A stretch of 64,000 nucleotides of DNA. It comes from Mobula hypostoma. Its lineage: Eukaryota. The notes beneath the pieces were generated by a model. It saw only the letters and a list, made by a program, of their open reading frames with translations, was not told the DNA's origin and made no database searches. Numbering within the stretch: the first letter of the stretch is position 1; each line of letters starts with the position of its first letter. Positions 7,378 to 58,462 of the stretch are shown piece by piece. Where the stretch lies: contig NC_086097.1 in NCBI RefSeq assembly GCF_963921235.1, positions 5,518,001-5,582,000 on the forward strand. Reading direction: 5' to 3'. Made by a program: the position numbers and the translations under genes.

Positions 7378-7892
7378 TAAGCAGTTTTGGGCCCCTGACT
7401 AAGAAAGAATGTGCTGGCATTGGAGAGGGTTCAAAGGAGGTTCACGAACATGATTACAGGGTTGAAAGCTTTGTCATATGAGGAGCATTTGATGGCTCTG
7501 GGCTTCTGCTCACGGAGTTCAGAAGAATGAGGGGTGAAACCTATCAAATGTTGAAAGGCTTTGATAAAGTAGGTGTGGAGAGGATGTTTCCTATGGTGGG
7601 GGAGTCTAAGATCAGATGACACAGCCTCAGAATGGAGAGATGTCCTTTCAGAACAGAGATGAGGCAGAACCTCTTCAGCCACAGAGTGGTGAGTCTGTGG
7701 AATTCATTGCTACAGGCGGCTGTGGAGGGCAAGTTATTGGGTCCAGTTAAAGCAGAGGTAGATAGATTCTTCATTAGACAGGGCATGAAGATATAAGGGG
7801 GGAAAGCAAGAGATCGGGGCTGAGAGGGAAAATAGATCTACCATGATAAAATGGCAGAGCATACTTGATGAGCCAAGTAGTCTAATTCTGTT
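7378..7892 (+). mobile_element. CR1 3' fragment (its tail resumes at 12349-12376)
   Basis: CR1 ORF2 C-terminal motifs and 3' UTR. Confidence 0.8.
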
Positions 7893-7953
7893 AACACACA
7901 TCAAAGTTGCTGGTGAACGCAGCAGGCCAAGCAGCATCTGTAGGAAGAGGCGC

Positions 7954-7989
7954 AGTCGACGTTTCAGGCCGAGACCCTTCGTCAGGACT
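7954..7989 (-). ncRNA. Minimal type I hammerhead ribozyme in Penelope 3' region
   Basis: Sense strand reads AGUC-CUGACGA-AGGGUCUCGGCCU-GAAA-CGUC^GACU: intact core boxes, stem I AGUC/GACU, short stem II, palindromic ACGU in place of stem III. Confidence 0.85.
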
Positions 7990-8278
7990 AACTGAAGGAA
8001 GAGTGAGTAAGGGATTTGAAAGTTGGAGGGGGAAGGGGAGATCCAAAATGATAGGAGAAGACAGGAGGGGGAGGGATAGAGCCAAGAGCTGGACAGGTGA
8101 TAGGCAAAAGGGATACGAGAGGATCATGGGACAGGAGGTCCGGGAAGAAAGACAAGGGGGGGGGCACCCAGAGGATGGGCAAGAGGTATATTCAGAGGGA
8201 CAGAGGGAGAAAAAGAGTGAGAGAAAGAATGTGTGCATAAAAATAAGTAACAGATGGGGTACGAGGGGGAGGTGGGGC

Positions 8279-10183
8279 CTAGCGGAAGTTAGAGAAGTCA
8301 ATGTTCATGTCATCAGGTTGGAGGCTACCCAGACGGAATATAAGGTGTTGTTCCTCCAACCTGAGTGTGGCTTCATCTTTACAGTAGAGGAGGCCGTGGA
8401 TAGACATGTCAGAATGGGAATGGGATGTGGAATTAAAATGTGTGGCCACTGGGAGATCCTGCTTTCTCTGGCGGACAGAGCGTAGATGTTCAGCAAAGCG
8501 GTCTCCCAGTCTGCGTCGGGTCTCGCCAATATATAAAAGGCCACATCGGGAGCACCGGACGTAGTATATCACCCCAGTCAACTCACAGGTGAAGTGTTGC
8601 CTCACCTGGAAGGACTGTTTGGGGCCCTGAATGGTGGTAAGGGAGGAAGTGTAAGGGCATGTGTAGCACTTGTTCCGCTTACACGGATAAGTTCCAGGAG
8701 GGAGATCAGTGGGGAAGGATGGGGGGGACGAATGGACAAGGGAGTCGCGTAGGGAGCGATCCCTGTGGAATGCAGAGAGAGGGGGGGAGGGACAGATGTG
8801 CTTAGTGGTGGGATCCCATTGGAGGTGGCGGAAGTTACGGAGAATAATATGTTGGACCCGGAGGCTGGTGGGGTGGTAGGTGAGGACCAGGGGAACCCTA
8901 TTCCTAGTGGGGTGGCGGGAGGATGCAGTGAGAGCAGATGTGCGTGAAATGGGGGAGATGCGTTTAAGAGTAGAGTTGATAGTGGAGGAAGGGAAGCCCC
9001 TTTCTTTAAAAAAGGAGGACATCTCCCTCGTCCTAGAATGAAAAGCCTCATCCTGAGAGCAGATGCGGCGGAGACGGAGGAATTGCGAGAAGGGGATGGC
9101 GTTTTTGCAAGAGACAGGGTGAGAAGAGGAATAGTCCAGATAGCTGTGAGAGTCAGTAGGCTTATAGTAGACATCAGTGGATAAGCTGTCTCCAGAGACA
9201 GAGACAGAAAGATCTAGAAAGGGGAGGGAGGTGTCGGAAATGGACCAAGTAAACTTGAGGGCAGGGTGAAAGTTGGAGTCAAAGTTAATAAAGTCAACGA
9301 GTTCTGCATGCGTGCAGGAAGCAGCGCCAATGCAGTCGTCGATGTAGCGAAGGAAAAGTGGGGGACAGATACCAGAATAGGCACGGAACATAGATTGTTC
9401 CACAAACCCAACAAAAAGGCAGGCATAGCTAGGACCCATACGGGTGCCCATAGCTACACCTTTAGTTTGGAGGAAGTGGGAGGAGCCAAAGGAGAAATTA
9501 TTAAGAGTAAGGACTAATTCCGCTAGACGGAGCAGAGTGGTGGTAGAGGGGAACTGATTAGGTCTGGAATCCAAAAAGAAGCATAGAGCTTTGAGACCTT
9601 CCTGATGGGGGATGGAAGTATATAAGGACTGGACATCCATGGTGAAAGTAAAGCGGTGGGGGCCAGGGAACTTAAAATCATTGAAAAGTTGAAGAGCGTG
9701 AGAAGTGTCACGAACATAGGTCGGAAGGGATTGAACAAGGGGTGATAAAACAGTGTCGAGGTATGCAGAAATGAGTTCGGTGGGGCAGGAGCAAGCTGAG
9801 ACAATAGGTCGGCCAGGACAGGCAGGTTTGTGGATCTTGGGTAGGAGGTAGAAACGGGAAGTGCGGGGTGTGGGAACTATAAGGTTGGTAGCAGCGGATG
9901 GGAGATCCCCTGAGCGGATAAAGTCGGTGATGGTGTGGGAGACAATGGCCTGGTGCTCCTTAGTGGGGTCACGATCGAGAGGTAAATGAGAGGAGGTATC
10001 CGCGAGTTGTTGCTGTGCCTCGGCAAGGTAGAGGTCAGTACGCCAGACTACAACAGCACCCCCCTTATCGGCGGGTTTAATAATAAGGTTAGGATTAGTG
10101 CGGAGGGAGTGGAGAGCAGAGCGTTCCGAAGGAGTGAGGTTGGAATGGGGACAAGGTGCGGTAAAGTCGAGACGGTTGATGTC
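8279..10183 (-). CDS. Penelope-like RT/GIY-YIG polyprotein, 5'-truncated but with an uninterrupted frame (~634 aa)
   Basis: Manual translation extends the 453-aa ORF upstream without stops: KPADKGGAVVV, FYLLPKIHK..GRPIVS, DVQSLYT (RT motif A), GVAMG, YIDD (motif C), CxxC knuckles, GVIY...LYIGET (GIY-YIG). Confidence 0.9.
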   Translation of the reverse strand, partial: DINRLDFTAPCPHSNLTPSERSALHSLRTNPNLIIKPADKGGAVVVWRTDLYLAEAQQQLADTSSHLPLDRDPTKEHQAIVSHTITDFIRSGDLPSAATNLIVPTPRTSRFYLLPKIHKPACPGRPIVSACSCPTELISAYLDTVLSPLVQSLPTYVRDTSHALQLFNDFKFPGPHRFTFTMDVQSLYTSIPHQEGLKALCFFLDSRPNQFPSTTTLLRLAELVLTLNNFSFGSSHFLQTKGVAMGTRMGPSYACLFVGFVEQSMFRAYSGICPPLFLRYIDDCIGAASCTHAELVDFINFDSNFHPALKFTWSISDTSLPFLDLSVSVSGDSLSTDVYYKPTDSHSYLDYSSSHPVSCKNAIPFSQFLRLRRICSQDEAFHSRTREMSSFFKERGFPSSTINSTLKRISPISRTSALTASSRHPTRNRVPLVLTYHPTSLRVQHIILRNFRHLQWDPTTKHICPSPPLSAFHRDRSLRDSLVHSSPPSFPTDLPPGTYPCKRNKCYTCPYTSSLTTIQGPKQSFQVRQHFTCELTGVIYYVRCSRCGLLYIGETRRRLGDRFAEHLRSVRQRKQDLPVATHFNSTSHSHSDMSIHGLLYCKDEATLRLEEQHLIFRLGSLQPDDMNIDFSNFR

Positions 10184-10187
10184 CCAT

Positions 10188-11906
10188 CGGATACCTCCTC
10201 TTATTTACCCCTTGATCGTGACCCCACTAAGGAGCACCAGGCCATTGTCTCCCACACCATCACCGACTTTATCCGCTCAGGGGATCTCCCATCCACTGCT
10301 ACCAACCTTATAGTTCCCACACCCTGTACTTCCCGTTTCTATCTCCTACCAAGATCCACAAACCTGCCTGTCCTGGCCGACCTATTGTCTCAGCTTGCTC
10401 CTGCCCCACCAAACTCGTTTCTGCATATCTCGACACGGTTTTATCATCCCTTGTTCAATCCCTTCCGACCTATGTTCGTGACACTTCTCACGCTCTTAAA
10501 CTTTTCGATGATTTTAAGTTCCCTGGCCCCACCGCTTTATTTTCACCATGGATGTCCAGTCCTTATATACTTCCATCCCCCATCAGGAAGGTCTCAAAGC
10601 TCTACGCTTCTTTTTGGATTCCAGACCTAATCAGTTCCCCTCTACCACCACTCTGCTCCGTCTAGCGGAATTAGTCCTTACTCTTAATAATTTCTCCTTT
10701 GGCTCCTCCCACTTCCTCCAAACTAAAGGTGTAGCTATGGGCACCCGTATGGGTCCTAGCTATGCCTGCCTTTTTGTTGGGTTTGTGGAACAATCTATGT
10801 TCCGTGCCTATTCTGGTATCTGTCCCCCACTTTTCCTTCGCTACATCGACGACTGCATTGGCGCTGCTTCCTGCACGCATGCAGAACTCACTGACTTTAT
10901 TAACTTTGCCTCCAACTTTCACCCTGCCCTCAAGTTTACCTGGTCCATTTCCGACACCTCCCTCCCCTTTCTTGGTCTTTCTGTCTCTGTCTCTGGAGAC
11001 AGCTTATCCACTGATGTCTACTATAAGCCTACTGACTCTCACAGCTATCTGGACTATTCCTCTTCTCACCCTGTCTCTTGCAAAAACGCCATCCCCTTCT
11101 CGCAATTCCTCCGTCTCCGCCGCATCTGCTCTCAGGATGAGGCTTTTCATTCTAGGACGAGGGAGATGTCTTCCTTTTTTAAAGAAAGGAGCTTCCCTTC
11201 CTCCACTATCAACTCTGCTCTTAAACGCATCTCCCCCATTTCATGTACATCTGCTCTCACTCCATCCTTCCGCCACCCCACTAGGAATAGGGTTCCCCTG
11301 GTCCTCACCTACCACCCCACCAGCCTCCGGGTCCAACATATTATTCTCTGTAACTTCCGCCACCTCCAACGGGATCCCACCACTAAGCACATCTTTCCCT
11401 CCCCCCCCTCTGCATTCCGCAGGGATCGCTCGCTACACAACTCCCTTGTCCATTCGTCCCCCCCATCCCTCCCCACTGATCTCCCTCCTGGCACTTATCC
11501 GTGTAAACGGAACAAGTGCTACACATGCCCTTACACTTCCTCCCTTACCACCATTCAGGGCCCCAAACAGTCCTTCTAGGTGAGGCAACACTTCACCTGT
11601 GAGTTGACTGGGGTGATATACTACGTCCGGTGCTCCCGATGTGGCCTTTTATATATTGGCGAGACCCGACGCAGACTGGGAGACCGCTTTGCTGTACATC
11701 TACGCTCTGTCCGCCAGAGAAAGCAGGATCTCCCAGTGACCACACATTTTAATTGCACATCCTATTCCCATTCTGACATGTCTATCCACGGTCTCCTCTA
11801 CTGTAAAGATGAAGCCACACTCAGGTTGGAGGAACAACACCTTATATTCCGTCTGGGTAGCCTCCAACCTGATGGCATGAACATCGACTTCTCTAACTTC
11901 CGCTAG
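10188..11906 (+). pseudogene. Penelope-like RT/GIY-YIG ORF, disrupted copy
   Basis: Same protein as the left arm, with 1-bp deletions near 10348 and 10530 and a CAG>TAG stop at 11577-11579. Confidence 0.9.
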
Positions 11907-12199
11907 GCCCCACCTCCCCCTCGTACCCCATCTGTTACTTATTTTTATGCACACATTCTTTCTCTCACTCTGCTTTTTCTCCCTCTGACCCTCTGAATAT
12001 ACCTCTTGCCCATCCTCTGGGTCCCCCCCCCCTTGTCTTTCTTCCCGGACCTCCTGTCCCATGATCCTCTCATATCCCCTTTTGCCTATCACCTGTCCAG
12101 CTCTTGGCTCTATCCCTCCCCCTCCTGTCTTCTCCTATCATTTTGCATCTCCCCCTCCCCCTCCAGCTTTCAAATCCCTTACTCACTCTTCCTTCAGTT

Positions 12200-12235
12200 A
12201 GTCCTGACGAAGAGTCTCGGCCTGAAACGTCGACT
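12200..12235 (+). ncRNA. Minimal hammerhead ribozyme (right arm)
   Basis: CTGACGA 12204-12210, GAAA 12224-12227, predicted cleavage after GUC at 12231. One stem II mismatch. Confidence 0.8.
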
Positions 12236-13607
12236 GCACCTCTTCCTACAGATGCTGCTTGGCCTGCTGCGTTCACCAGCAACTTTGATGTGTGTTGCTT
12301 GAATTTCCAGCATCTGCAGAATTCCTGTTGTTTGAGTCTAATTCTGTTGCTCTGTCTTACGATCTTTTGGTCTAAGATGTTTTCTATGATGTGCCGAGCT
12401 GTGTCTCTGCAGCTTTTTGTTGTCTGAAGAAGAACAGCTGCCAAATCAAAGCGTGAAGCACCCAGACAGAATGTTTTCTCTGATGCATCAATAAAAATTT
12501 GGTGAGCATCAAAAGGGACATACCAAATTTCTTTAGCCTCTTGAGAAAGTGGAGGCACTGATGATCTGTACTGTCTCTGTGGTTGGATCAAGTTAGGCTC
12601 TTGGTGATGTTCACTCTACGGAATTTGAAGCTGTCAACAAACTCATCCTCAGCAGCTTTGATGTAAACAGGACTGTGTGCACTGAACCCATCACTGAAGT
12701 TAATGACAGCCCTTCAGTTTGTTAACATGGAGGAAAAGACTGTTTTTATGACACCATATCACTAGGCTCTCTATTTTCATCCAGTATATCAACTCATCCT
12801 TATTCTAGATAAGGCTCCTCACAGAGGCATCATCTTCAAACTTAAAGACGGAGTTAGTACCGGATCTGGCTGTGCAGTCATGAGTGTAAATTTGCTTTCA
12901 TGAAATTTGTGTTTATTTGTTTGTTTCTACTTCACATAATTATTGTTTCAACTCATGTCTTTTGACGCATGTGCAGATGGTGTAGCATTGTGTGATACGG
13001 CCCATCTTCTGAGACCACAACATCACCCCTGCCCCCTTCTCTCTAACATAAATGTAATCTGTAAATAAATAATAAAATAATCTGTTTCGTAAATAAAATG
13101 TTTGGGTCAGTGACAAATCATCCCTCCTTTTTAAAGTTCAAAGCATTTTTTTAATTAGTGTACATACATGTCACGATATACAACCCTGAGATTCATTTTG
13201 CTATGGGTATACTTCACAAATCTATAGCATAGAACGGTTTGTTGCTTACTGTAGATTAATCCAAGGGCTTAATTCCACACAATACATGTTCAATAGAGAA
13301 TGAAGAGAGCAGAAAAATTGCACAGCCTCTTCTTCAGCAAGTTCTTGAATCCTTCCTTTCTTTTAGCAAATCGAATTAGACTAATTTTCCATTCCCCATC
13401 TTCCCCTGATTCTAACCAATTGTTACAGAACTACCATCGAGAGTGTCCTAACCAGCTGCATCATCTTCTGGTATGGGAACTGCAAGGTATCTGACCACAA
13501 GACCCTACAAAGGATTGTGAGGAGTGCTGAGAGAATCATTTTCAACCCATCCAAGATACTTACTGGAAGCTTGCATACACGGGGCCCTGAGTATTGTCAA
13601 TCATCCC

Positions 13608-21500: not shown

Positions 21501-21671
21501 ACTCGGGACAACCAGATCATGGAAGGTGAGATCCCTGAAAAATGGTCTGTTTAGGCTGGCTGCTCTGGATAATTGGAGACTTCTTCTTGGGACACTGATT
21601 CAAGGTTCAATTTTTAAAAAATCATTTCTCATACATAAGTGTAAAGGGGAACAACATAATTATTACTCTAG

Positions 21672-22103
21672 TAACACACATGAAAGTTGCTGGTGGAATG
21701 CAGCAGGCCAGGCAGCATCTATAGGAAGAGGTACAGTTGACGTTTCGGACTGAGACTAACTGAAAGAAGAGCTAGTAAGAGATTTGAAAGTGGGAGGGGG
21801 AGGGGGAGATCGGAAATGATAGGAGAAGACAGGAGGGGGAAGGGATGGAGCTAAGAGCTAGAAAGTTGATTGGCAAAAGGGATATGAGAGGATCATGTGA
21901 TGGACAGGAGGCCTAGGGAGAAAGAAAGGGGGAGAGGGGAAGCCCAGAGGATGGGCAAGGAGTATAGTGAGAGGGACAGAGGGAGAAAAAAGAGATAGAG
22001 GAAAAAGATTATTAATAATAATAAAAGATAAATAAATAACAGATGGGGTACAAAGGGGAGGTCGGGCATTAACTGAAGTTAGAGAAGTCAATGTTCATGC
22101 TCT
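21672..22103 (-). mobile_element. Penelope-like 3' fragment, tail-less, ribozyme partly deleted
   Basis: Matches the 3' end of the 7893 element (NIDFSNF + UTR). 13-bp TSD ATTATTACTCTAG at 21659-21671 and 22104-22116. Confidence 0.85.
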
Positions 22104-26812: not shown

Positions 26813-27741
26813 ACTCAGTAAACCCAAAAGATGGTGGTGAGGGCTTTACCCATGGTGGACTGGGCTGTATCCACTACTTTTGTAGGGTTTTCCATTCAAG
26901 GACTTTGGTGTTTCCATACCAGGCTGTAATGCGACCAGTCAATATACTCCCCTCCACACATTTACAGCAGTTTATCAAAGTTTTAGATGTCTTGCTGAAT
27001 CTTTGCAAACTTCTAAAGAAGTAGAGGCACTGCTGCATTTTCTTCGTTATTGCACTTGAGCTGGGCCCAGAACAAATCCTCTGAAATGTTAACACCGAGG
27101 AATTTAAAGTTGCTGACACTATTCACCTTTGATCTCCTGATGAGGACTGACTCATGGACCACAAATTTCCTTCCCCTCAATTCGATGTCGACCTCTTGGT
27201 CTTGCTAACATTGAGTGAGAGGTTGTTGTGGCACCATTCAGCTAGATTTTCAATTTCCCTCCTACATGCTGATTCATCACCACCTTTGATTTGGCCAATA
27301 ACAGAGGTGTTGTCAGTAAAATGAAGTATGGCATTGGAGCTGTGGTTAGGCACACAGTTGTAAGTGTAAAGTGAAAAGAGCAGGGGGCTAAGCTCACAGC
27401 TTTGTGGTGCACCTGTGCTGATGGAAATCGGGGAGGAGATGCTGTTGCCAACAGAACTGACTGGGGTCTGCAATTGAGTAAGGAGGTGTTGAGGCAATGG
27501 TCTTGAAGCTCATTCGTAAGGTCAGTGATGTTGTGGGGATGGAACTGGACTCTCTCACGGTGGTATCTGAAAAGAGGATGCTGTCCAAGTTGCATGCCAT
27601 CTTGGACAATGTCTCCCAGCCACTACATAATGTACTGGGTGGGCACAGGAGTACATTCAGCCAGAGACTCATTCCACCGAGATGCAACACAGAGCATCAT
27701 AGGAAGTCATTCCTGCCTGTGGCCATCAAACTTTACAACTC

Positions 27742-28656
27742 AAACAACAGGAATTCTGCAGATGCTGGAAATTCAAGCAACATACATCAAAGTTGCTGGT
27801 GAACGCAGCAGGCCAAGCAGCATCTATAGGAAGAGGCGCAGTCGACGTTTCAGGCCGAGACCCTTCGTCAGGACTAACTGAAGGAAGAGTGAGTAAGGGA
27901 TTTGAAAGCTGGAGGGGGAGGGGGAGATGCAAAATGATAGGAGAAGACAGGAGGGGGAGGGATAGAGCCGAGAGCTGGACAGGTGATAGGCAAAAGGGAT
28001 ACGAAAGGATCATGGGACAGGAGGTCCGGGAAGAAAGACGGGGGGGGGTGACCCAGAGGATGGGCAAGAGGTATATTCAGAGGGACAGAGGGAGAAAAAA
28101 GAGAGTGAGAGAAAGAATGTGTGCATAAAAATGAGAAACAGATGGGGTACGAGGGGGAGGTGGGGCCTAGCGGAAGTTAGAGAAGTCAATGTTCAGGCCA
28201 TCAGGTTGGAGGCTACCCAGACAGAATATAAGGTGTTGTTCCTCCAACCTGAGTGTGGCTTCATCTTTACAGTAGAGGAGGCCGTGGATAGACATGTCAG
28301 AATGGGAATGGGATGTGGAATTAAAATGTGTGGCCACTGGGAGATCCTGCTTTCTCTGGCGGACAGAGCGTAGATGTTCAGCAAAGCGGTTTCCCAGTCT
28401 GCGTCGGGTCTCACCAATATATAAAAGGCCACATCGGGAGCACCGGACGCAGTATATCACCCCAGTCGACTCACAGGTGAAGTGATGCCTCACCTGGAAG
28501 GACTGTTTGGGGCCCTGAATGGTGGTAAGGGAGGAAGTGTAAGGGCATGTGTAGCACTTGTTCCGCTTACACGGATAAGTGCCAGGAGGGAGATCAGTGG
28601 GGAGGGATGGGGGGGACGAATGGACAAGGGAATTGTGTAGGGAGCGATCCCTGCAC
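27742..28656 (-). mobile_element. Penelope-like 5'-truncated copy (GIY-YIG + 3' UTR + tail)
   Basis: ORF 28167-28658 is the GIY-YIG domain. 13-bp TSD AACTTTACAACTC at 27729-27741 and 28657-28669. The empty site is visible in the related LINE copy at ~41152-41170. Confidence 0.92.
27840..27875 (-). ncRNA. Minimal hammerhead ribozyme
   Basis: Same intact motif as 7954-7989. Confidence 0.8.
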
Positions 28657-35619: not shown

Positions 35620-35847
35620 CGCAAACACGAGGAATTCTGCAGATGCTGGAAATTCAAGCAACACACATCAAAGTTGCTGGTGAGTGCAGCAGGCCCGGCA
35701 GAATCTCTAGGAAGAGGTACAGTCGACGTTTCGGGCCGAGACCCTTTGTCAGGACCCTCCTGACGAAGGGTCTCGGCCCGAAATGTCGACTGTACCTCTT
35801 CCTAGAGATGCTGCCTGGCCTGCTGCGTTCACCAGCAACTTTGATGT
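35620..35847. mobile_element. 228-bp fold-back Penelope mini-insertion made of two inverted 3' ends
   Basis: ~90-bp arms around a CCC apex at 35755-35757. 13-bp TSD ATGTCACTAAAGA at 35607-35619 and 35848-35860. Confidence 0.92.
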
Positions 35848-35950
35848 ATGTCACTAAAGATTCATTTTCTGCATTCCCATTTAGACCTCTTCCCCGCAAA
35901 TCTTAGTGCTGTCAGTGATGAGCATGGTGAAAGGTTTCACCAGGACATTT

Positions 35951-41620: not shown

Positions 41621-41806
41621 CACGACCCTTCATCAGCACTGAAAGGAAAGAGGAAAATTCCTCTTTCTTTCCCGTCCTGTTAAGGGTCTCAGGCCAAAAC
41701 ATCAACTGATTTTTTTTCCACAGATGCTGCCTGGTCTGCTGAATTCCTCCAGCATTTTCTTTGTGTTGCTCCGAACTTCCAGCATCTGCAGATTCCCTCA
41801 TGTTTG
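41621..41806. mobile_element. Old fold-back Penelope mini-insertion inside a Tc1-like MITE
   Basis: GACCCTT..GAAAGAGGAA / TTCCTCTTTC..AAGGGTC hairpin followed by the CAGATGCTG...CCAGCATCTGCAG tail. Confidence 0.6.
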
Positions 41807-47325: not shown

Positions 47326-48102
47326 TTGGAAAACTTGTCCAATGTTTGATTTTTAATCCATTGCCTCTCCTAGACTGGCATCTTTTGCTAACTAAAGCAA
47401 AGTGACTTGAGATAGAAAATATAAATAATTTATGTACATTAAATTTCAATCTTTGTGTTTCACAGGAAAATATTTTCTTGGCACTTTATCACCAGTATTA
47501 GATCTTGAGATCTTGAGACTCCACAGTTAATTCCAAGACAGTCAAAAGGTACACTCAGAGGAAGCATTTCTGAAGAAGTTACAGACTTTACAGTCTATTT
47601 TTCGGTCCACTGAATCAAAATTATTTAAAGTCAATATATTTTCAAAGCACCATGACAAGGAAATCAACCTTTTCCCTCAGTCAAGAATGGCTAATTTAAG
47701 GAAAGTGCCTTATAGGATATTTGCGCAAGACATGGGATATTCAGACAGATAATACATTTGTGTCAAAGCTGTCATTGTGCAAGCCAGGAAAAGCTACATG
47801 ACATGAAAGTGACCCTATCTAACTGTCAGCTGATCTACGGCGAGGAGCACACACCAAACGCCTGTGGTTAAAATAACGTGAAGCACTACAGAGAAACCAT
47901 TCAAAATGGCAACGAAAACAGATTCTTTACTCAGAACAACAGCTGTCATGATCTAATGGAAAGACATTGGATTCTTCAGTAAGCAATGAAAGAGAAAGAA
48001 AAGCAAACAACAGGAATTCTGCAGATGCTGGAAATTCAAGCAAGATACATCAAAGTTGCTGGTGAACGCAGCAGGCCAAGCAGCATCTATAGGAAGAGGC
48101 GC

Positions 48103-48138
48103 AGTCGACGTTTCAGGCCGAGACCCTTCGTCAGGACT
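48103..48138 (-). ncRNA. Minimal hammerhead ribozyme
   Basis: Same intact motif. Confidence 0.8.
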
Positions 48139-49667
48139 AACTGAAGGAAGAGTGAGTAAGGGATTTGAAAGTTGGAGGGGGAGGGAGGAGATGCAAAATG
48201 ATAGGAGAAGACAGGAGGGGGAGGGATGGAGCCAAGAGCTGGACAGGTGATAGGCAAAAGGGGATACGAGAGGATCATGGGACAGGAAGTCCAGGAAGAA
48301 AGACAAGGAGGGCGGGGGGTGACCCAGAGGATGGGCAAGAGGTATATTCAGAGGGACAGAGGGAGAAAAAGGAGAGTGAGAGAAAGAATGTGTGCATAAA
48401 AATGAGTAACAGATGGGGTACGAGGGAGAGGTGGGGCCTTAGCGGAAGTTAGAGAAGTCGATGTTCATGCCATCAGGTTGGAGGCTACCCAGACAGAATA
48501 TAAGGTGTTGTTCCTCCAACCTGAGTGTGGCTTCATCTTTACAGTAGAGGAGACCGTGGATAGACATGTCAGAATGGGAATAGGATGTGCAATTAAAATG
48601 TGTGGTCACTGGGAGATCCTGCTTTCTCTGGCGGACAGAGCGTAGATGTACAGCAAAGCGGTCTCCCAGTCTGCGTCGGGTCTCACCAATATATAAAAGG
48701 CCACATCGGGAGCACCGGACGCAGTATATCACCCCAGTCGACTCACAGGTGAAGTGATGCCTCACCTGGAAGGACTGTTTGGGGCCCTGAATGGTGGTAA
48801 GGGAGGAAGTGTAAGGGCATGTGTAGCACTTGTTCCGCTTACGCGGATAAGTGCCAGGAGGGAGATCAGTGGGGAGGGATGGGGGGGACGAATGGACGAG
48901 GGAGTCGCGTAGGGAGCGATCCCTGCGGAATGCGGGGGTGGGGGAGGAAAAGATGTGCTTAGTGGTGGGATCCCGTTGGAGGTGGCAGAAGTTACGGAGA
49001 ATAATATGTTGGACCCGGAGGCTGGTGGGGTGGTAGGTGAGGATCAGGGGAACCCTATTCCTAGTGGGGTGGCGGAAGGATGGAGTGAGAGCAGATGTAC
49101 GTGAAATGGGGGAGATGCGTTTAAGAGCAGAGTTGATAGTGGAGGAAGGGAAACTGTATGGTATCTGTCCCCCACTTTTCCTTCGCTACATCTCCCAGTG
49201 GCCACACATTTTAATTCCACATCCCATTCCCATTCTGACATGTCTATCCACGGCCTCCTCTACTGTAAAGATGAAGCCACACTCAGGTTGGAGGAACAAC
49301 ACCTTATATTCCGTCTGGGTAGCCTCCAACCTGATGGCATGAACATCGACTTCTCTAACTTCCGCTAGGCCCCACCTGCCCCTCGTACCCCATCTGTTAC
49401 TCATTTTTATGCACACATTCTTTCTCTCACTCTCCTTTTTCTCCCTCTGTCCCTCTGAATATACCTCTTGCTCATCCTCTGGGTCACCCCCCCCCCCACG
49501 TTGTCTTTCTTCCCGGACCTCCTGTCCCATGATCCTCTCGTATCCCCTTTTGCCTATCACCTGTCCAGCTCTCAGCTCTATCCCTCCCCCTCCTGTCTTC
49601 TCCTATCATTTTGCATCTCCCCCTCCCCCTCCAGCTTTCAAATCCCTTACTCACTCTTCCTTCAGTT

Positions 49668-49703
49668 AGTCCTGACGAAGGGTTTCGGCCTGAAACGTCG
49701 ACT
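49668..49703 (+). ncRNA. Minimal hammerhead ribozyme
   Basis: AGTC-CTGACGA-AGGGTTTCGGCCT-GAAA-CGTC-GACT. Confidence 0.8.
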
Positions 49704-50479
49704 GTACCTCTTCCTACAGATGCTGCTTGGCCTGCTGCGTTCACCAGCAACTTTGATGTATGTTGCGAGAAAGAAAAGCATGTTATTTATGGAAGATACA
49801 GTATACCATCCTGTCATGTCACTTTATGACAACTGCTATGTGTTTATGTCGGATTTACAGAAAAATGAATATTTTGCCAACAAATTTAGCCCAATTATAT
49901 TTTCTCCTCTGTAACTGAGTTGCTGAATGAAGTAGTTTTCCTCTTGGTCTACTGTGTTAAACATTATGCAAAAAATGCTTTCTCCCATAGCACTGAGCAT
50001 ATACATGCAGTATACACAGACAGAACTAATAATCATCTTCTTCTTCATGTGCCTTGCACGTTACACACTTGGGCGATCATGGCTCTCCACATCGAACGAT
50101 CCCATGCAGCGTCAATGATATCTCGCACACTTGGGTCTCTCAGTTCTTTCACAGTGTCCATATATTTTCTTCTTTGCCTTCCTCTTCTGCGTTTCCCAGG
50201 CATATGGCCTTGTAATGGAAGGCATTCTATTTCTCCCTTTCTGATGACATGGCCCCAGGAATTTAAGTTTCCTCTCATTTAATGTTCTCATTAAAGATCT
50301 TTTTGTATGGGCATGTTATGGTACTGTCTCATTAGCTACCCTATCTCTATATGATATTTTCAGCATTCTTCTAAGAAACCACATTTCTATGGCTTCTAAG
50401 TTTCTTTGGAGTTCTGAGCTAATAATAGGCCACTGAATAAAAGGATGAAACATCAATCAACTAGTTACTAAGCCGCAGC

Positions 50480-50602
50480 CATGCACGCAAAGTGCTGGAG
50501 GAATTCGTGACTGATGAAGGTTCTCGACCTGAAACATTGACTGTTTATTCCTCTTCATAGTGGTTCCTGACCTGCTGAGTTCCTCCAGCATCTTGTGCAT
50601 GC
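50480..50602 (+). mobile_element. Old Penelope mini-insertion with hammerhead remnant and a short inverted arm
   Basis: CTGATGA...GAAACATT motif plus tail. Flanking repeat GTTACTAAGC at 50464 and 50604. Confidence 0.6.
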
Positions 50603-52542
50603 TGTTCTGAATTTCCAGCATCTGCAGAATCTCTTGCGTTTATGTTACTAAGCTGTGATCTTTTGAAGATCGGGTGAAGGTACTTCAGTATAGATTTTTC
50701 GATGTCTGACTCGGGGCTCACTGGGGTATTTCTCTGAGTCTAGTGTGACATAGTGTCAAGGACAGTATATATATTCCTTTTAAAAACATATGTCCAGGTA
50801 GAGATTGGAGTTAAAATTCTTGAAAACTCCCATATCTCTTACTCGGCACCAGTAAGTGGCTCCAACATATTGTGATTTTTATTTTATTTAGAGGTACAAC
50901 ACAGAATAAGCCCTTTTGGCTCAAAGAGTCGAACCACCCATAAACCCAACTATTTAACTCCAGCTTAATCACAGGACAATTTACAATAATGAAATAACCT
51001 ACATACAAACTGCTTTGTGTTTGGACTAAGGAAGGAGACTAGAGCACCCAGAGGAAACCCATGCGTTTATCAGACGGATATACAAACTTCTAATAGATGG
51101 CATCAGAATTGAACTCTGAACTCCAACGCCCCAACTGTAAGAGCATCATGCTAATTACTACGCTGCCGTGGTACCCATAGGTTGAAGACTAGATGTAAAA
51201 ATATGCATCTGACTGGGTTGAATTTCTATCTCTAAAATATAGATTTTACTTATTTACCAACTTACTATTTACAAAGGGGTTTCTAACACTAAGTGTTAAC
51301 ATGAAGGGTGATTGCTAACAATGACAAAAGAACGAAACCTAGAAAGTCATCCTTGTACGGTGAAGCTAAACGTATTTCATAGCCCTGCCAGCATCTTATA
51401 ATGTGAAATTCACACAAATCAACAGAATGACTTTTAAAAACCCAATACAATGTGCGGATATAACTTAATAATCCATTTAACACCATCAACTGAGGCTGCA
51501 TATCTAGCAATACTTCCTTTAACAAGAAGAGCACATCAAACACAGAATTTTTAGGAAATGGAAGTATTGAAGATTTCACTATTGTAAATAACAGTTCTGG
51601 AATCATATTCTTAAGCCTCCTATCAGCACTTGTCATGTTTGGCATGTTTTCTATCTTCATTTAGGTTAAGTTTATACACAGAAAGGTGCCCGAAAAGGGC
51701 CAGCAATGCCCCAAAGGATCCCGCCCACCCTGATCATCAACTGTCTGTCCCACTTCCATTGGGGAGGAGGCTACATAGCATCCACACCAGGACCAACCAA
51801 CCGAAAAAACGGTTAGTTTCTCCAAGCACTAAGGGTGATCAACACCTCCACCCACTTCATTCCTCCACACACCCTCCCACCTCCCCCCCTACAACTACTA
51901 CTTTTTCATTCCTGTCAGACACCTTATGTACAGACACTCCTGTGACTAGTGTCACTTTATGGACATAAAATCAATCTATGTGTATCAGCTATCTTACCTA
52001 TTTATAATTCATGTGTTTTTATTGTTATTGTTCCTTAGCATATTGTTTTTTTCATTTTTTGGTGTTTTTTTTTCAGATCCAGAGTAACAACTATTTTGTC
52101 CTCCTTTACACTTGTGTACTGGAAATGGCATTAAACAATCTTGAACCTTGAAATAATGATTGTAAAACAGAAGTGTCATAATCATAGAGAAGAATACAGT
52201 TTTATTTTGCAAGTGAATGTAAGATAATTGACAGTGAATGGCCAGTTTGTTTACAGTTATCACTGTTATTGCTATCTACCACAGACTGTTTCGCCAATCA
52301 AAAGCTGACAGCCACACGGACTGACGGTTCCATTTACAATGTGTAATGAGCTGGTTGCTCTGAGCCAAGGAGAGGGTGAAACTGCAGTAAAGACTTTGAA
52401 ATCATGAGGACTAGGGTTCGTCAGAGCTGGTCCCTGTCTGTTACCCTGCAAAGGGTGCCACGGTAGCCTAGCAACTAGCATGATGCCATGACAGCTTGGG
52501 GCGTCAGAGTTCAGAGTTCAATCCCGGCTTTCTCTGTAAGGA

Positions 52543-53225
52543 ACTCACATAAAATGCTGGTGAACGCAGCAGGCCAGGCAGCGTCTATAGGAAGAGGTAC
52601 AGTCGACGTTTCGGGCCGAGACCCTTCGTCAGGACTAACTGAAAGAAAAGCTAGTAAGAGATTTGAAAGTGGGAGGGGGAAGGGGAGATCCAAAATGATA
52701 GGAGGAGGGGGAGGGATAGAGCCAAGAGCTGGACAGTTGATTGGCAAAAGAGATACGAGGCTGGAGAAGAGACAGGATCATGGGAAGGGAGGCCTAGGGA
52801 GAAAGAAAGGGGGAGGGGAGCCCAGAGGATGGGCAAGGAGTATAGTGAGAGGGACAGAGGAAGAAAAATGAGAGAGAGAGAAAAAAAAAATAAATAAATA
52901 AGGGATGGGGTACAAGGGGAAGGTGGGGCATTAACGGAAGTTAGAGAAGTCAATGTTCATGCCATCAGGTTGGAGGCTACCCAGACGGAATATAAGGTGT
53001 TGTTCCTTCAACCTGCGTGTGGCTTCATCTTTACAGTAGAGGAGGCTGTGGATAGACATGTCAGAATGGGAATGGGACGTGGAATTAAAATGTGTGGCCA
53101 CTGGGAGATCCTGCTTTCTCTGGAGGACAGAGTTTAGGTGTTCAGCGAAATGGTCTCCCAGCCTGCATTGGGTCATGCCAATATATAGAAGGCCAGATCG
53201 GGAGCACCGGACACAGTATATCACC
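52543..53225 (-). mobile_element. Penelope-like 5'-truncated copy (sister subfamily, similar to 21672) inside a V-SINE
   Basis: GIY-YIG ORF 52931-53224. 11-bp TSD CTCTGTAAGGA at 52532-52542 and 53226-53236. Confidence 0.9.
52601..52636 (-). ncRNA. Minimal hammerhead ribozyme
   Basis: Intact core; stem II GGGU-CUCG-GCCC. Confidence 0.8.
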
Positions 53226-54237
53226 CTCTGTAAGGAGCTTGTTTGTTCTCCCTGTGGAAAGTTTGGGTTTTTTCTGGGTGCTCCGGTTTCCTTTCATGGT
53301 CCAAAGATGTGCCGGGTAGGTGAATTGATCCCATGATTAGGGTAGGGTTCATTCGAAGGTCAGTGAGGCGTGGCTTGACAAGCTGGGAGGGCCGATTCCA
53401 CACTGTATCTCTGAAATAAATAAATAAATGTCTCAATGTGCAAGTTGGCTGTGGAGAGGATCAGGGTATCCCATTAGGGTACCCTGGGTATCAGGGTAAA
53501 CCACTGCAACCCATTGGCTTTTAGCATTGATTCTCTCACCTCAGATTTTATAAAGAGATGACTCCAACACCTATTAATTTAGTCCAGATGATTGATACTG
53601 ACATTGCAATGAAAAACGTGTGTCTAGGTTGAAATTGCAGTTAAAACTCTTGAGCAAACAATGGTTTAAAAAAAATACATTGAGTGTTAAAGAGTACACA
53701 AAGTAAGCAAAGCATAAAGTATGTAATTGCCAATGACACATCTCAGTGCACATGACTGAGAATAATACACAATGTTCTTCTGCACCAATGGAAATGATCA
53801 GAGTGGAAATGCTTGATTAATAGCTCCAAATTTATATTTTTACAACTGAAGTACAGGCTGGTTTTAAAAGTCCTTGTTTGTTTTATTTTTACAATACCAG
53901 GAATGTCTCACAAATTATATTTGTAAGGATGTTTTTAATGGATAATGTGAGTAAAGCATAACCTGATTAAAACACCGATTCAATGCCACAATCTGTAATG
54001 TTTTGAGGTGATGACACAAAAAATGCTCGATATCTCATTATAAGCATCAATTTTCAGTGCATGCAATGTCTCCAGCAATATGTCACACCGTATGTAATCA
54101 GAACCAGGTTTCATGTCAACGCAATATGTCGCAAAATATGTTGTTTATGCGACAGCAGTACATCGAAATACATAATAAAAACTGTGAATTATAGTAATTG
54201 TATAGAGTACGTATCTATTAAATAGTTAAATTAAATA

Positions 54238-56954: not shown

Positions 56955-58462
56955 GGCTACATCCCCACTATGCCGGATAATTTTGAAAACAAAGCTTTTT
57001 CTCTTCGATTTGACCTTCCGTCCACACTGAAACGATGTTTTTAGCCCCCGAAAACAGAGATTTTCTGAAACAGTCTCCAGAGTGAATAAATCTGAAAATG
57101 CCTAATGTCTGTTGCAGTGTTTTTGGGGTAACCGGAGCTTTTTAAAACCGCTGTCATGACGTGCCGGAACAGATGGCGGCAGCGCGGCAATTGTTTTCTT
57201 ATTATTATTCTTATTCTTCTTATTATTATTATTACTTTATTGTTTAGAGCGTACATTCATCACAGTGATATTTGATTCTGTGCTTCGCAGAACCTAACAA
57301 TTTAAGAACAGACGGCAACGAGACTGAAGCCAGAAGAGTTAGAAATGTACTCACCGAAGACATTGACCCAGAGCTTACTGAATAAATAAGTATACTCACT
57401 TTGCCCTGTTTTCTGTCCTTGCTTGTATGAAGGTAAGGACAGAAAACACCCTCTGCCACCTCCAGTTTAAATTCCATGCGGAATATTTTGGAGGATCAAG
57501 AACGAAGAACCAAGAACCAAGGTGGTTTACCTATTTATGCAAGTACTTCTCTGACAATAGATGTGTAACAGCCTAACGTAACATTGTATGGAAATACAAG
57601 ACAACACTGATGAAGTCATGTTTTATATATTTAACTAGGTGCTTTATTAATGCAACAGTTAGTCAGTTTTTCAATGTTCGTCGTCAGCCGGGTCATACTG
57701 TCTGTGAATTCCCTGTCGGTTGCCTCCATACGCTACAGTATTTTCAAGCAACACACATAAAAGTTGCTGGTGAACGCAGCAGGCCAGGCAGCATCTCTAG
57801 GAAGAGGTGCAGTCGACATTTCAGGCCGAGACCCTTCGTCAGGACTAACTGAAGGAAGAATGAGTAAGGGATTTGAAAGTTGGAGGGGGAGGAGGAGATC
57901 CAAAATGATAGGAGAAGACAGGAGGGGGAGGGATGGAGTCAAGAGCTGGACAGGTGATAGGCAAAAGGGATAAGAGAGGATCATGAGACAGGAGGTCCGG
58001 GAAGAAAGACAAGGTGGGGGGGGACCCAGAGGATGGGCAAGGGGTATATTCAGAGGGACAGAGGGAGAAAAAGGAGAGTAAGAGAAAGAATGTGTGCATA
58101 AAAATAAGTAACAGATGGGGTACGAGGGGGAGGTGGGGCATTAGCGGAAGTTAGAGAAGTCGATGTTCATGCCATCAGGTTCATGCTACAGTATTTTTTT
58201 AGTTTTAAGTCTTCCTGCACGAGTGCCAAGAGCAATTCCTTTTAAGTTTTTCTAGTCTGTAACTAGGCAAATGCGCACCAAGTATACCGTTTCCTCTTCG
58301 CTTGTTTTCTGTTTGTCCTGCACATGCCCAGTAGGAGGAGATTCGCCCAAATATCCATCTAATATGGACAGAGATATTTTGAAAAACGGTTAGTGTGGAC
58401 GCCTGTCGTTTTTACTCGAAACCGGCGTTTTCAAAATTGTCTGGCGTGGTGTGGATGTAACC
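56955..58462. mobile_element. PIF/Harbinger non-autonomous element, copy 1 (~1055 bp plus a Penelope insert)
   Basis: TIR GGCTACATCCCCACTA / TGGTGTGGATGTAACC, flanks TTA and TGA. Minus-strand remnant LLALVQEDLKLK..RMEATDREFTDSMTRLTTNIEKLTN resembles the C-terminus of the Harbinger second ORF. Confidence 0.85.
57745..58184 (-). mobile_element. Penelope-like 3' fragment inside a Harbinger derivative
   Basis: 13-bp TSD GCTACAGTATTTT at 57732-57744 and 58185-58197. The empty site is present in the second Harbinger copy at ~61496. Confidence 0.92.

What the first reader, a model, noticed from the sequence alone, without database searches (positions are those of the whole stretch)
7879..12348. Recurrent two-ended Penelope integration: inverted dimers in one TSD, one arm with a ~38-nt tail and the other without
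Seen: three insertions (7893-12334, 35620-35847, 48006-49766) each consist of two 3'-anchored, 5'-truncated copies joined head-to-head inside a single 13-14 bp TSD. In all three, one arm ends at ...CAGCATCTGCAGAATTCCT..TGTTT, and the other stops ~36-43 nt earlier near ...CTTTGATGT(G/A)TGTT. Single-arm insertions use the same two end points: tail at 27742, no tail at 21672 and 52543, intermediate at 57745. Known: Penelope elements often have inverted arrangements and a 30-40 nt tail. Inference: both nicks of a staggered GIY-YIG cut prime reverse transcription, one at the RNA terminus and one at a fixed internal site, and the two cDNAs are then joined. This differs from L1 twin priming, where the inverted part does not re-copy the 3' end.
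Basis: partly seen in the sequence, partly recalled or inferred. Interest (0 to 1): 0.8.

Follow-up and report, generated by a model that had tools for sequence, protein, structure and literature searches.

The report
Penelope-like retroelement two-ended insertions
These are the usual head-to-head, front-truncated insertions of a Penelope-like jumping gene, and in this genome nearly every such pair has the known ~38-base tail on one arm only, which limits how the element can integrate.

Summary
Window 7893-12334 is a head-to-head dimer of a Penelope-like element (PLE: reverse transcriptase plus C-terminal GIY-YIG) inside an exact 14-bp target-site duplication (TSD). One arm carries a 38-nt tail and the other stops at ..GATGTGTGTT.

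In 134 sampled 3' ends, end points fall into two zones about 33-38 nt apart. All 34 TSD-flanked dimers in a first sample, and all 50 in a second, pair one tailed arm with one tail-less arm (80 distinct dimers). Genome-wide, 26 short dimers have a tail start on both arms against 2,953 with it on a named arm.

Two target-primed events, one per nick, fit the structure. Either arm can be the longer one, which argues against a single fold-back cDNA. The "RNA terminus" part fails, because tailed ends often run on into templated ORF-side sequence, so both start zones are internal.

Most of this is already published. The inverted copy and one-sided tail appear in Arkhipova 2013 and Craig 2021. Extension of both strands and two RT start sites appear in Frangieh 2024. 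What is added here is the near-obligate tail/no-tail pairing and the correlated 5' ends of partner arms. This scan noted similar fold-back PLE copies before on other DNA.

The parts
7879..7892 (.). left copy of the 14-bp target-site duplication AGTCTAATTCTGTT
   Evidence: (family D19, 100% identical)
7893..10187 (-). tail-less (N) arm. It is a 5'-truncated element copy ending at ..GATGTGTGTT and runs 185 nt further 5' than the other arm. It holds an open 641-aa frame (8282-10204) with RT and GIY-YIG.
10188..12334 (+). tailed (T) arm, used here as the reference arm (q1-q2147). The frame is broken by a stop at about 11577.
12205..12232 (+). minimal hammerhead-like motif, decayed in this copy: CTGACGA, a bulged A, helix II, GAAAC, GTC, then GAC. 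The predicted cut lies after 12232.
   Evidence: Read. The features match the min-HHR description in PMC4209133 (passages). Rfam found no match.
12278..12299 (+). stem-loop AGCAAC-UUUGAUGUGU-GUUGCU. The proximal (tail-less) start zone lies on its 3' side.
   Evidence: fold; z-score not significant; end positions
12297..12334 (+). 38-nt tail. The motif UGUUGYUUG occurs at 12293-12301 and again at 12326-12334, 33 nt apart, once at each start zone.
12335..12348 (.). right copy of the 14-bp TSD
35620..35847 (.). second dimer: tailed arm (-) on the left and tail-less arm (+) on the right. The 13-bp TSD ATGTCACTAAAGA lies at 35607-35619 and 35848-35860.
48006..49766 (.). third dimer: tailed arm (-) from q1003 and tail-less arm (+) from q1541. 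A 34-nt piece of q627-660 sits at the joint. The 14-bp TSD lies at 47992-48005 and 49767-49780.
27741..28654 (-). single tailed arm with a 13-bp TSD
21667..22100 (-). single tail-less arm (80% identity to the reference arm) with a 13-bp TSD
52538..53226 (-). single tail-less arm with a 14-bp TSD (1 mismatch)
57743..58181 (-). single arm ending at ..GTTGCTTGAA (q2116, upper edge of the proximal zone) with a 15-bp TSD (1 mismatch)
41682..41806 (+). tailed end of a diverged related family (75% identity)
50511..50630 (+). tailed end of a diverged related family (74% identity)

Best explanation
This is a high-copy family of endonuclease-bearing Penelope-like retroelements in a 3.48-Gb animal genome. 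The element's ribonucleoprotein makes two nicks 13-15 bp apart. Either or both of the resulting 3' ends prime reverse transcription on element RNA.

Synthesis starts in one of two internal zones. The proximal zone lies on the 3' side of a small stem-loop and gives a tail-less end. The distal zone lies 33-38 nt downstream and gives a tailed end. Each zone carries a UGUUGYUUG motif.

When only one nick primes, a single 5'-truncated copy results, with either end type. When both prime, two antisense cDNAs grow towards each other and are joined at their 3' ends, by run-off, microhomology, short palindromes or filler. The product is a head-to-head dimer in one TSD.

In a two-ended event the two zones are used once each. 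Shown here: the anatomy, the two zones, the TSDs, the pairing rule and the arm-length pattern. Inferred: the order of events and the reason for the pairing. My preferred reason is that one RNA molecule, or one asymmetric protein dimer, offers each start zone to only one primer.
For: Family identity:
- The open 641-aa frame has RVT_1 (E 9e-5) followed by GIY-YIG (E 6e-4).
- The translation shows KPADKGG and YIGETRRRLGDRF.
- A min-HHR-like motif lies in the 3' region.
- The 3'-end 18-mer has 87,986 exact hits.

Two start zones:
- Of 134 ends, 66 end at q2100-2122 and 58 at q2144-2147; 10 end elsewhere.

Single events:
- 34 head-to-head pairs have a TSD >=10, and 26 of these are 13-15 bp. The random-pair control gave 6 of 583.
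- Neighbouring hits within 5 kb are head-to-head 21 times and tail-to-tail once.
- Partner arms are 96.0% identical against 93.2% for non-partners (n=18, Wilcoxon p 5e-4).
- Partner arms share a six-site haplotype in 8 of 18 dimers, against 9.4% of random pairs.

Pairing rule:
- 34 of 34 dimers are tail/no-tail. One of the 34 tailed arms is a diverged copy whose alignment stops at q2139.
- Independence, with 47% tailed ends, predicts about 50% mixed pairs (P about 5e-11).
- In the second sample, the first 50 of 2,866 short dimers, 39 have an exact tail start on exactly one side (lists compared by eye). The other 11 were fetched and all are tail/no-tail.
- Genome-wide, the tail start occurs on a named arm 1,467 + 1,486 times and on both arms 26 times.

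Two primers rather than a fold-back:
- The tail-less arm is longer in 12 dimers, the tailed arm in 8, and the arms are symmetric in 11, of 31.

Single arms with 11-17-bp TSDs exist with both end types: 14 tail-less and 10 tailed, two of them doubtful.

Published in vitro work on an Anolis PLE shows extension of both strands, two RT start sites equal to the tail limits, and a predicted protein dimer (PMC11167929).
Against: - In vitro the two strands showed no difference in start site (PMC11167929). The pairing rule is therefore not explained by published biochemistry.
- The test for one RNA versus two was inconclusive. Arm-to-arm distances (6-15 differences in about 335 nt) are like those to unrelated copies, and in 2 of 7 long dimers many non-partners are closer.
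- Partner arms differ at 2-4 of 6 polymorphic sites in several dimers.
- Pfam matches are below the gathering scores, and Rfam found no hammerhead.
- 26 short dimers with a tail start on both arms exist. Only 8 were examined and none was settled. Three run past the tail into ORF-side sequence, one has inverted flanks, one sits in another copy, and three show no repeat within 12 nt. My TSD routine also missed 5 of 12 true mixed dimers in that call.
- One tailed/tailed head-to-head pair lies 3.7 kb apart without a shared TSD (C1:397076/400760).
- All sampled pieces come from one end of one contig, plus pattern counts.
Confidence: 0.72

Rival explanations
1. Fold-back (self-priming). One cDNA is primed at the distal zone, folds back on itself and copies itself. 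It stops about 35 nt short of its own start, for example because the protein still holds that stretch. The second arm is then a copy of the first.
For: - 10 of 29 dimers have partner 5' ends within 2 nt, against 2.5 expected from shuffling (P<5e-5).
- Some joints sit on short natural inverted repeats, for example CTCTG..CAGAG at q1518-1532.
- Arkhipova et al. 2013 read palindromes at inverted joints as self-priming (PMC3846280, passages).
Against: - The copy cannot be longer than its template, nor gain a tail. Yet the tail-less arm is the longer one in 12 of 31 dimers, by up to more than 1 kb.
- Tail-less single arms with normal TSDs exist.
- This model can explain at most the symmetric third of the dimers.
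Confidence: 0.1
2. Trimming. Both arms start at the distal zone, and the endonuclease, which recognises tail sequence, later cuts the tail off one side while resolving the intermediate.
For: - Craig et al. [quoted passage not shown]
- The 2024 paper recounts that the D. virilis endonuclease needed the tail for recognition.
Against: - The 2024 in vitro data map the two limits to RT start sites, not to cuts.
- Tail-less ends abut the TSD directly, with 0-few nt of overlap.
- Single arms of both types share the same TSD length.
- No partial tails were seen apart from the narrow zones.
Confidence: 0.12
3. Chance neighbours or copies of a dimeric master. The arms are either independent insertions next to each other, or the dimer is copied as one unit.
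For: Self-targeting occurs. A tailed end at C1:1862524 and the next copy share the same 13-nt flank, and the 2024 paper uses the element's own junction as the target. Two identical dimers lie 4 kb apart (C1:13257843 and 13261800).
Against: - Each dimer has one shared TSD.
- Head-to-head neighbours outnumber tail-to-tail 21 to 1.
- The joints differ from dimer to dimer, and so do the TSDs.
- The pairing rule would not follow from chance.
Confidence: 0.02

Closest known systems
Canonical endonuclease-bearing PLE insertion units, e.g. Pen2a_Av of Adineta vaga (Arkhipova et al. 2013, PMC3846280; Craig et al. 2021, PMC8557442, Fig. 2 legend)
   Same: A 5'-truncated inverted copy lies next to a direct copy inside one TSD. 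[quoted passage not shown] Hammerhead motifs occur in the terminal repeats, and truncation is heavy.
   Different: Here most units are bare two-arm dimers of 160-300 nt with no full-length copy between them. TSDs are 13-15 bp, against the 8-10 bp reported for A. vaga. The one-tail rule is quantified here (80 of 80 dimers; both-tailed about 1% or less), whereas the papers call the tail 'optional' or 'often' one-sided.
Poseidon of Anolis carolinensis (PAc) in vitro (Frangieh et al. 2024, PMC11167929)
   Same: Both target strands are cut and extended. Reverse transcription starts at two adjacent internal sites by a stem-loop, and the stretch between them is the tail. Targets are A/T-rich. Templates run on past the tail into the next unit.
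   Different: In PAc the sites lie 111-118 nt inside the ORF. Here they lie upstream of the likely ATG. In vitro there was no strand difference and no statement on pairing. Here the two sites are used once each in two-ended events. The paper does not mention head-to-head dimers.
L1 twin priming (recalled; no call)
   Same: The second nick's 3' end also primes on the RNA, which gives an inverted segment within one TSD.
   Different: In twin priming the inverted part is an internal, more 5' segment of the same RNA, and the 3' end is copied once. Here both arms carry the 3' region.

Membership tests
Penelope-like elements with endonuclease (EN+ PLE) | reverse transcriptase domain of the PLE type | tested here: inconclusive
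   RVT_1 scored E 9e-5 and 22.7 bits, below the gathering score of 29.6. A DKG-type motif, KPADKGG, is visible in the translation; this motif is named in PMC8557442. No phylogeny was done.
Penelope-like elements with endonuclease (EN+ PLE) | GIY-YIG endonuclease C-terminal to the RT in the same frame | tested here: met
   GIY-YIG lies at residues 544-618 of the 641-aa frame, after the RT at 132-292. It scored E 6e-4, just under the gathering score. LLYIGETRRRLGDRF is visible in the translation.
Penelope-like elements with endonuclease (EN+ PLE) | tandem and/or inverted terminal repeats (pLTRs) within one TSD | tested here: met
   There are 34 inverted dimers with a shared TSD. Tandem pLTR-tail-ORF-start-pLTR units occur, and an array with a 310-nt period lies on C2.
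Penelope-like elements with endonuclease (EN+ PLE) | 30-40-bp tail at one end only | tested here: met
   The tail is 38 nt. It is one-sided in 34 of 34 and 50 of 50 dimers.
Penelope-like elements with endonuclease (EN+ PLE) | minimal hammerhead ribozyme motif in the repeat | tested here: inconclusive
   CUGACGA, a bulged A, a GGG..CCC helix II, GAAAC and GUC with palindromic ACGU were read by eye. They fit the min-HHR features in PMC4209133. Rfam gave no match, and no cleavage was tested.
Clade within PLEs (Penelope/Poseidon, Neptune, Nematis) | placement of the RT in a tree and clade-specific motifs | not tested
   No homologue search or tree was run.
L1-type twin priming | the inverted part is an internal 5' segment and the 3' end is copied once | tested here: not met
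   Both arms reach the 3' region (q2100 or beyond) in all but 4 of the tail-less arms. Those 4 stop at q2061-2092, still inside the 3' region.

The most novel reading that the evidence does not exclude
Each two-ended integration copies one RNA molecule twice. The two 3' ends of the 14-bp staggered break are loaded onto two copies of a UGUUGYUUG start motif 33-38 nt apart on the same RNA, held by a dimeric protein. Each motif can then serve only one primer. That would explain why mixed tail/no-tail dimers are the rule, why both-tailed and both-tail-less dimers are nearly absent, and why a third of dimers have arms ending at the same 5' base (run-off at one RNA's 5' end). The tail length would then report the spacing of two active sites on one template.
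Probability: 0.35. Interest if true: 0.65.

Novelty: new member of a known kind. Interest (0 to 1): 0.4.

Why it matters
How Penelope-like elements integrate is still described as undefined (PMC8557442), and the first in vitro system dates from 2024. This genome offers tens of thousands of natural integration products. They give three results.
- The two start zones are used once each when both nicks prime.
- Either arm can be the longer one.
- Partner arms often share a 5' end.

The in vitro work did not see the first result, and any integration model must meet all three. They also suggest a simple test for one RNA versus two. For genome annotation, these 160-300-nt hairpin-like dimers (at least 2,866 in one size class) are ordinary PLE debris, not a new class of repeat.

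Tried and rejected
- **Whole-genome DNA search** with 200 nt of the 3' end found nothing because the words are too common. Exact patterns worked instead.
- **Rfam** gave no hammerhead at gathering or E-value thresholds.
- **Target-site asymmetry.** Flanks outside both nicks are A-rich (4.3-5.2 A in 12 positions, against 3.25 in background). I saw no clear difference between the nick that primes the tailed arm and the one that primes the tail-less arm. The best single position was A at -3 in 27 of 34 versus 18 of 34, which is not convincing across 20 positions.
- **One RNA versus two, from arm similarity.** This was inconclusive because the family has a star-like spread.
- **Tail as a folded structure.** Only a small stem-loop appears, and the z-score is -0.15.
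- **Hammerhead cleavage as the source of arm 5' ends.** Most short arms start at q1985-2034, upstream of the predicted cut at q2045/2046. Only a few start at q2040-2050.
- **Literature searches.** Searching for a two-primer model or twin priming in PLEs found no statement of the pairing rule or of a two-primer origin of the dimers.
- **Papers not held.** Pyatkov 2004, Arkhipova 2006 and Evgen'ev & Arkhipova 2005 were not held, and the supplements of the 2024 paper were not opened. Any of these may already say it.
Full report
**What is there**

Window 7879-12348 holds an exact 14-bp direct repeat, AGTCTAATTCTGTT, at 7879-7892 and 12335-12348. It brackets two inverted copies of one element that are 96-97% complementary.

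The right arm (10188-12334, + strand) ends ...CAACTTTGATGTGTGTT followed by 38 more bases, GCTTGAATTTCCAGCATCTGCAGAATTCCTGTTGTTTG. The left arm (7893-10187, - strand) ends at ...GATGTGTGTT, directly against the repeat. It runs 185 nt further towards the element's 5' end than its partner.

BLAST of the right arm against the window finds 12 element 3' ends.

**What the element is**

The left arm carries an open 641-aa frame with RVT_1 (E 9e-5) followed by GIY-YIG (E 6e-4). Both scores are just under Pfam's gathering thresholds. The translation shows KPADKGG and LLYIGETRRRLGDRF.

The 3' untranslated part holds CTGACGA, a bulged A, helix II, GAAAC, GTC and then GAC. These fit the minimal dimer-type hammerhead described for PLE repeats (PMC4209133, passages). 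Rfam reports nothing.

RT followed by a C-terminal GIY-YIG, repeats holding a hammerhead, heavy 5' truncation and a 30-40-nt one-sided tail together define endonuclease-bearing Penelope-like elements (PMC8557442 and PMC3846280, passages). I did not place the family in a PLE clade.

**Scale**

The window lies in a 3.48-Gb assembly. An 18-mer just upstream of both end types has 44,055 + 43,931 exact hits.

I fetched 3-kb or smaller pieces around the first 100 hits of contig C1. With the window this gave 134 element 3' ends in 228 kb plus 64 kb.

**Two end zones**

Positions below are given as q, counted along the right arm (q1 = 10188, q2147 = 12334).
- 66 ends lie at q2100-2122, with modes at 2111 and 2113. 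TSD-corrected, these fall mostly at 2105-2113.
- 58 ends lie at q2144-2147.
- 10 ends lie elsewhere, namely four shorter arms and six diverged tails.

The tail-less 'site' is thus a zone about 10 nt wide, on the 3' side of a small stem-loop AGCAAC/GUUGCU.

The tailed zone is also fuzzy. Of 30 ends reaching q2147, 12 continue with CG and 9 with CGT, against 1.2% CG in flanks. That continuation, CGTTTAAATTCAC..., follows the tail in 427 copies genome-wide. In locus L108 it leads, after about 35 nt, to an ATG-led reading frame before another repeat unit begins.

The template RNA therefore runs on past the tail, and the distal start is internal. It is not at an RNA terminus.

The same motif, UGUUGYUUG, sits at both zones 33 nt apart. 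This is read directly from the sequence.

**Single events**

Testing every minus/plus pair of ends within 6 kb for a shared direct repeat gave 34 dimers with a TSD of 10 or more. TSD lengths were 14 bp (11 dimers), 15 bp (8) and 13 bp (7), with 8 others. Random pairings gave such a repeat in 6 of 583 trials.

Among the first 100 hits, neighbours within 5 kb were head-to-head 21 times, tail-to-tail once and same-strand 9 times.

Partner arms are more alike than non-partners: 96.0% against 93.2% (n=18, p 5e-4). They share a six-site haplotype in 8 of 18 dimers, against 9.4% of random pairs.

**The pairing rule**

All 34 dimers pair a tailed arm with a tail-less arm. In one, the tailed arm is a diverged copy whose alignment stops at q2139. 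Four tail-less arms stop early, at q2061-2092. With 47% tailed ends overall, independent choice predicts about half mixed pairs, so 34 of 34 has P of about 5e-11.

I then counted genome-wide patterns.
- 2,866 short dimers have the shared 15-mer on both arms.
- The tail start lies on a named arm in 1,467 + 1,486 cases.
- The tail start lies on both arms in 26 cases. Independent choice would predict several hundred.

Of the first 50 dimers listed, 39 appear's list on exactly one strand (compared by eye). I fetched the other 11, and all are tail/no-tail with a mutated tail start. Four of the 50 overlap the first sample, so 80 distinct dimers are all mixed.

Of the 26 both-tailed cases I fetched 8.
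- In three, one arm runs on past the tail into ORF-side sequence. That looks like the 5' repeat of a longer inverted copy.
- One has flanks that are inverted copies of each other.
- One sits inside another copy.
- Three show no direct repeat within 12 nt.

None is a clean counter-example, but my repeat routine also missed 5 of 12 true mixed dimers in that call, so these 8 remain unsettled. One tailed/tailed pair 3.7 kb apart has no shared TSD.

Single arms with 11-17-bp TSDs occur with both end types: 14 tail-less and 10 tailed, two of them doubtful. One 'single' tail-less arm has 10 nt of inverted tail at its 5' joint (C1:601779), so some singles may be dimers with a tiny second arm.

**How it most likely works**

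On the top strand the inverted arm is antisense DNA attached to the left flank's 3' end. On the bottom strand the other arm is antisense DNA attached to the right flank's 3' end. The simplest reading is two target-primed reverse transcriptions, one from each nick of a 13-15-bp staggered break.

A single cDNA that folds back and copies itself gives the same topology. But its second arm can be neither longer than the first nor gain a tail. The tail-less arm is the longer one in 12 of 31 dimers, the tailed arm in 8, and the arms are symmetric in 11. Fold-back can therefore explain at most a subset.

Partner 5' ends coincide within 2 nt in 10 of 29 dimers, against 2.5 expected (P<5e-5). This fits two cDNAs running off the same RNA 5' end, or annealing at short palindromes such as CTCTG..CAGAG or ..GGGAT/ATCCC...

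Joints also show 0-3 nt overlaps, or fillers taken from the element itself. One example is 34 nt of q627-660 in the window's third dimer.

Why the two zones are used once each is inferred, not shown. I favour one RNA, or one asymmetric protein dimer, that offers each start motif to one primer. Sequence comparison of the arms could not tell one RNA from two.

**What is already known**

- Arkhipova et al. 2013 describe, for Adineta vaga, an ORF between two repeats with an adjacent inverted repeat in one 9-bp TSD. [quoted passage not shown]
- Craig et al. [quoted passage not shown] They guessed at endonuclease-mediated resolution as the cause.
- Frangieh et al. 2024 (main text read) showed with purified Anolis protein that both strands are cut and extended. 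They showed that reverse transcription starts at two adjacent internal sites whose spacing is the tail, that the protein is predicted to dimerise, and that the strands did not differ in start site. They do not discuss head-to-head dimers.

What I did not find in print is threefold:
- the near-obligate one-tail rule with numbers;
- the link between two-strand priming and the dimers;
- the correlated 5' ends.

Pyatkov 2004, Arkhipova 2006 and Evgen'ev & Arkhipova 2005 are not held, and I did not open the 2024 supplements.

**Verdict**

This is a new family of a known kind. It yields one useful quantitative constraint on an unsolved integration mechanism.

Noticed in passing
window 12190-12215 and arm 5' ends in loci L001-L086: The 5' ends of short arms cluster at q1985-2034, just upstream of and at the 5' edge of the hammerhead-like motif. 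In 24 of 29 dimers both arms start beyond q1950. A TCAGTT initiator-like word lies at 12195-12200. The cluster could mark a short transcript start in the repeat rather than random truncation.
   Followed up: partly
G000:C2:157816733-157817687 (list): Four exact hits of the tail-plus-ORF-start word lie at a 310-nt spacing. This is a tandem array of a short repeat-tail unit.
   Followed up: no
L108:1266-1893: A non-autonomous-looking unit: repeat plus tail, about 150 nt of the likely ORF start (ATG about 35 nt after the tail), then again repeat plus tail. The start zones here lie upstream of the ATG, unlike the Anolis element.
   Followed up: partly
C1:1860406 and C1:1862524 (L049): A tailed repeat fragment and the next copy downstream are each followed by the same 13-nt flank, GA(C/T)CAATATCACC. 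A second element appears to have inserted right next to an older tail, which would be self-targeting that builds tandems.
   Followed up: no
window 49156-49189; C1:444748-444755; C1:2225022 dimer centre: Fillers at dimer joints are pieces of the element itself: 34 nt of q627-660, 8 nt of the tail, and 25 nt of q2026-2050. This suggests template switches or abortive starts.
   Followed up: partly
C1:2960764-2961419 (L081): A three-arm structure inside one exact 14-bp TSD: tailed arm, 332 nt of other sequence, a second tailed arm in the same orientation, then an inverted tail-less arm.
   Followed up: no
window 41682-41806 and 50511-50630: Two ends of a related family at 74-75% identity keep the tail and the ..CCAGCATCTGCAG.. 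core. The tail region is therefore conserved across diverged families.
   Followed up: no
L102 (C5:223910863-223911220): A both-tailed dimer whose outer flanks are reverse complements of each other for at least 22 nt. It is either a larger palindromic duplication or an assembly fold-back.
   Followed up: no
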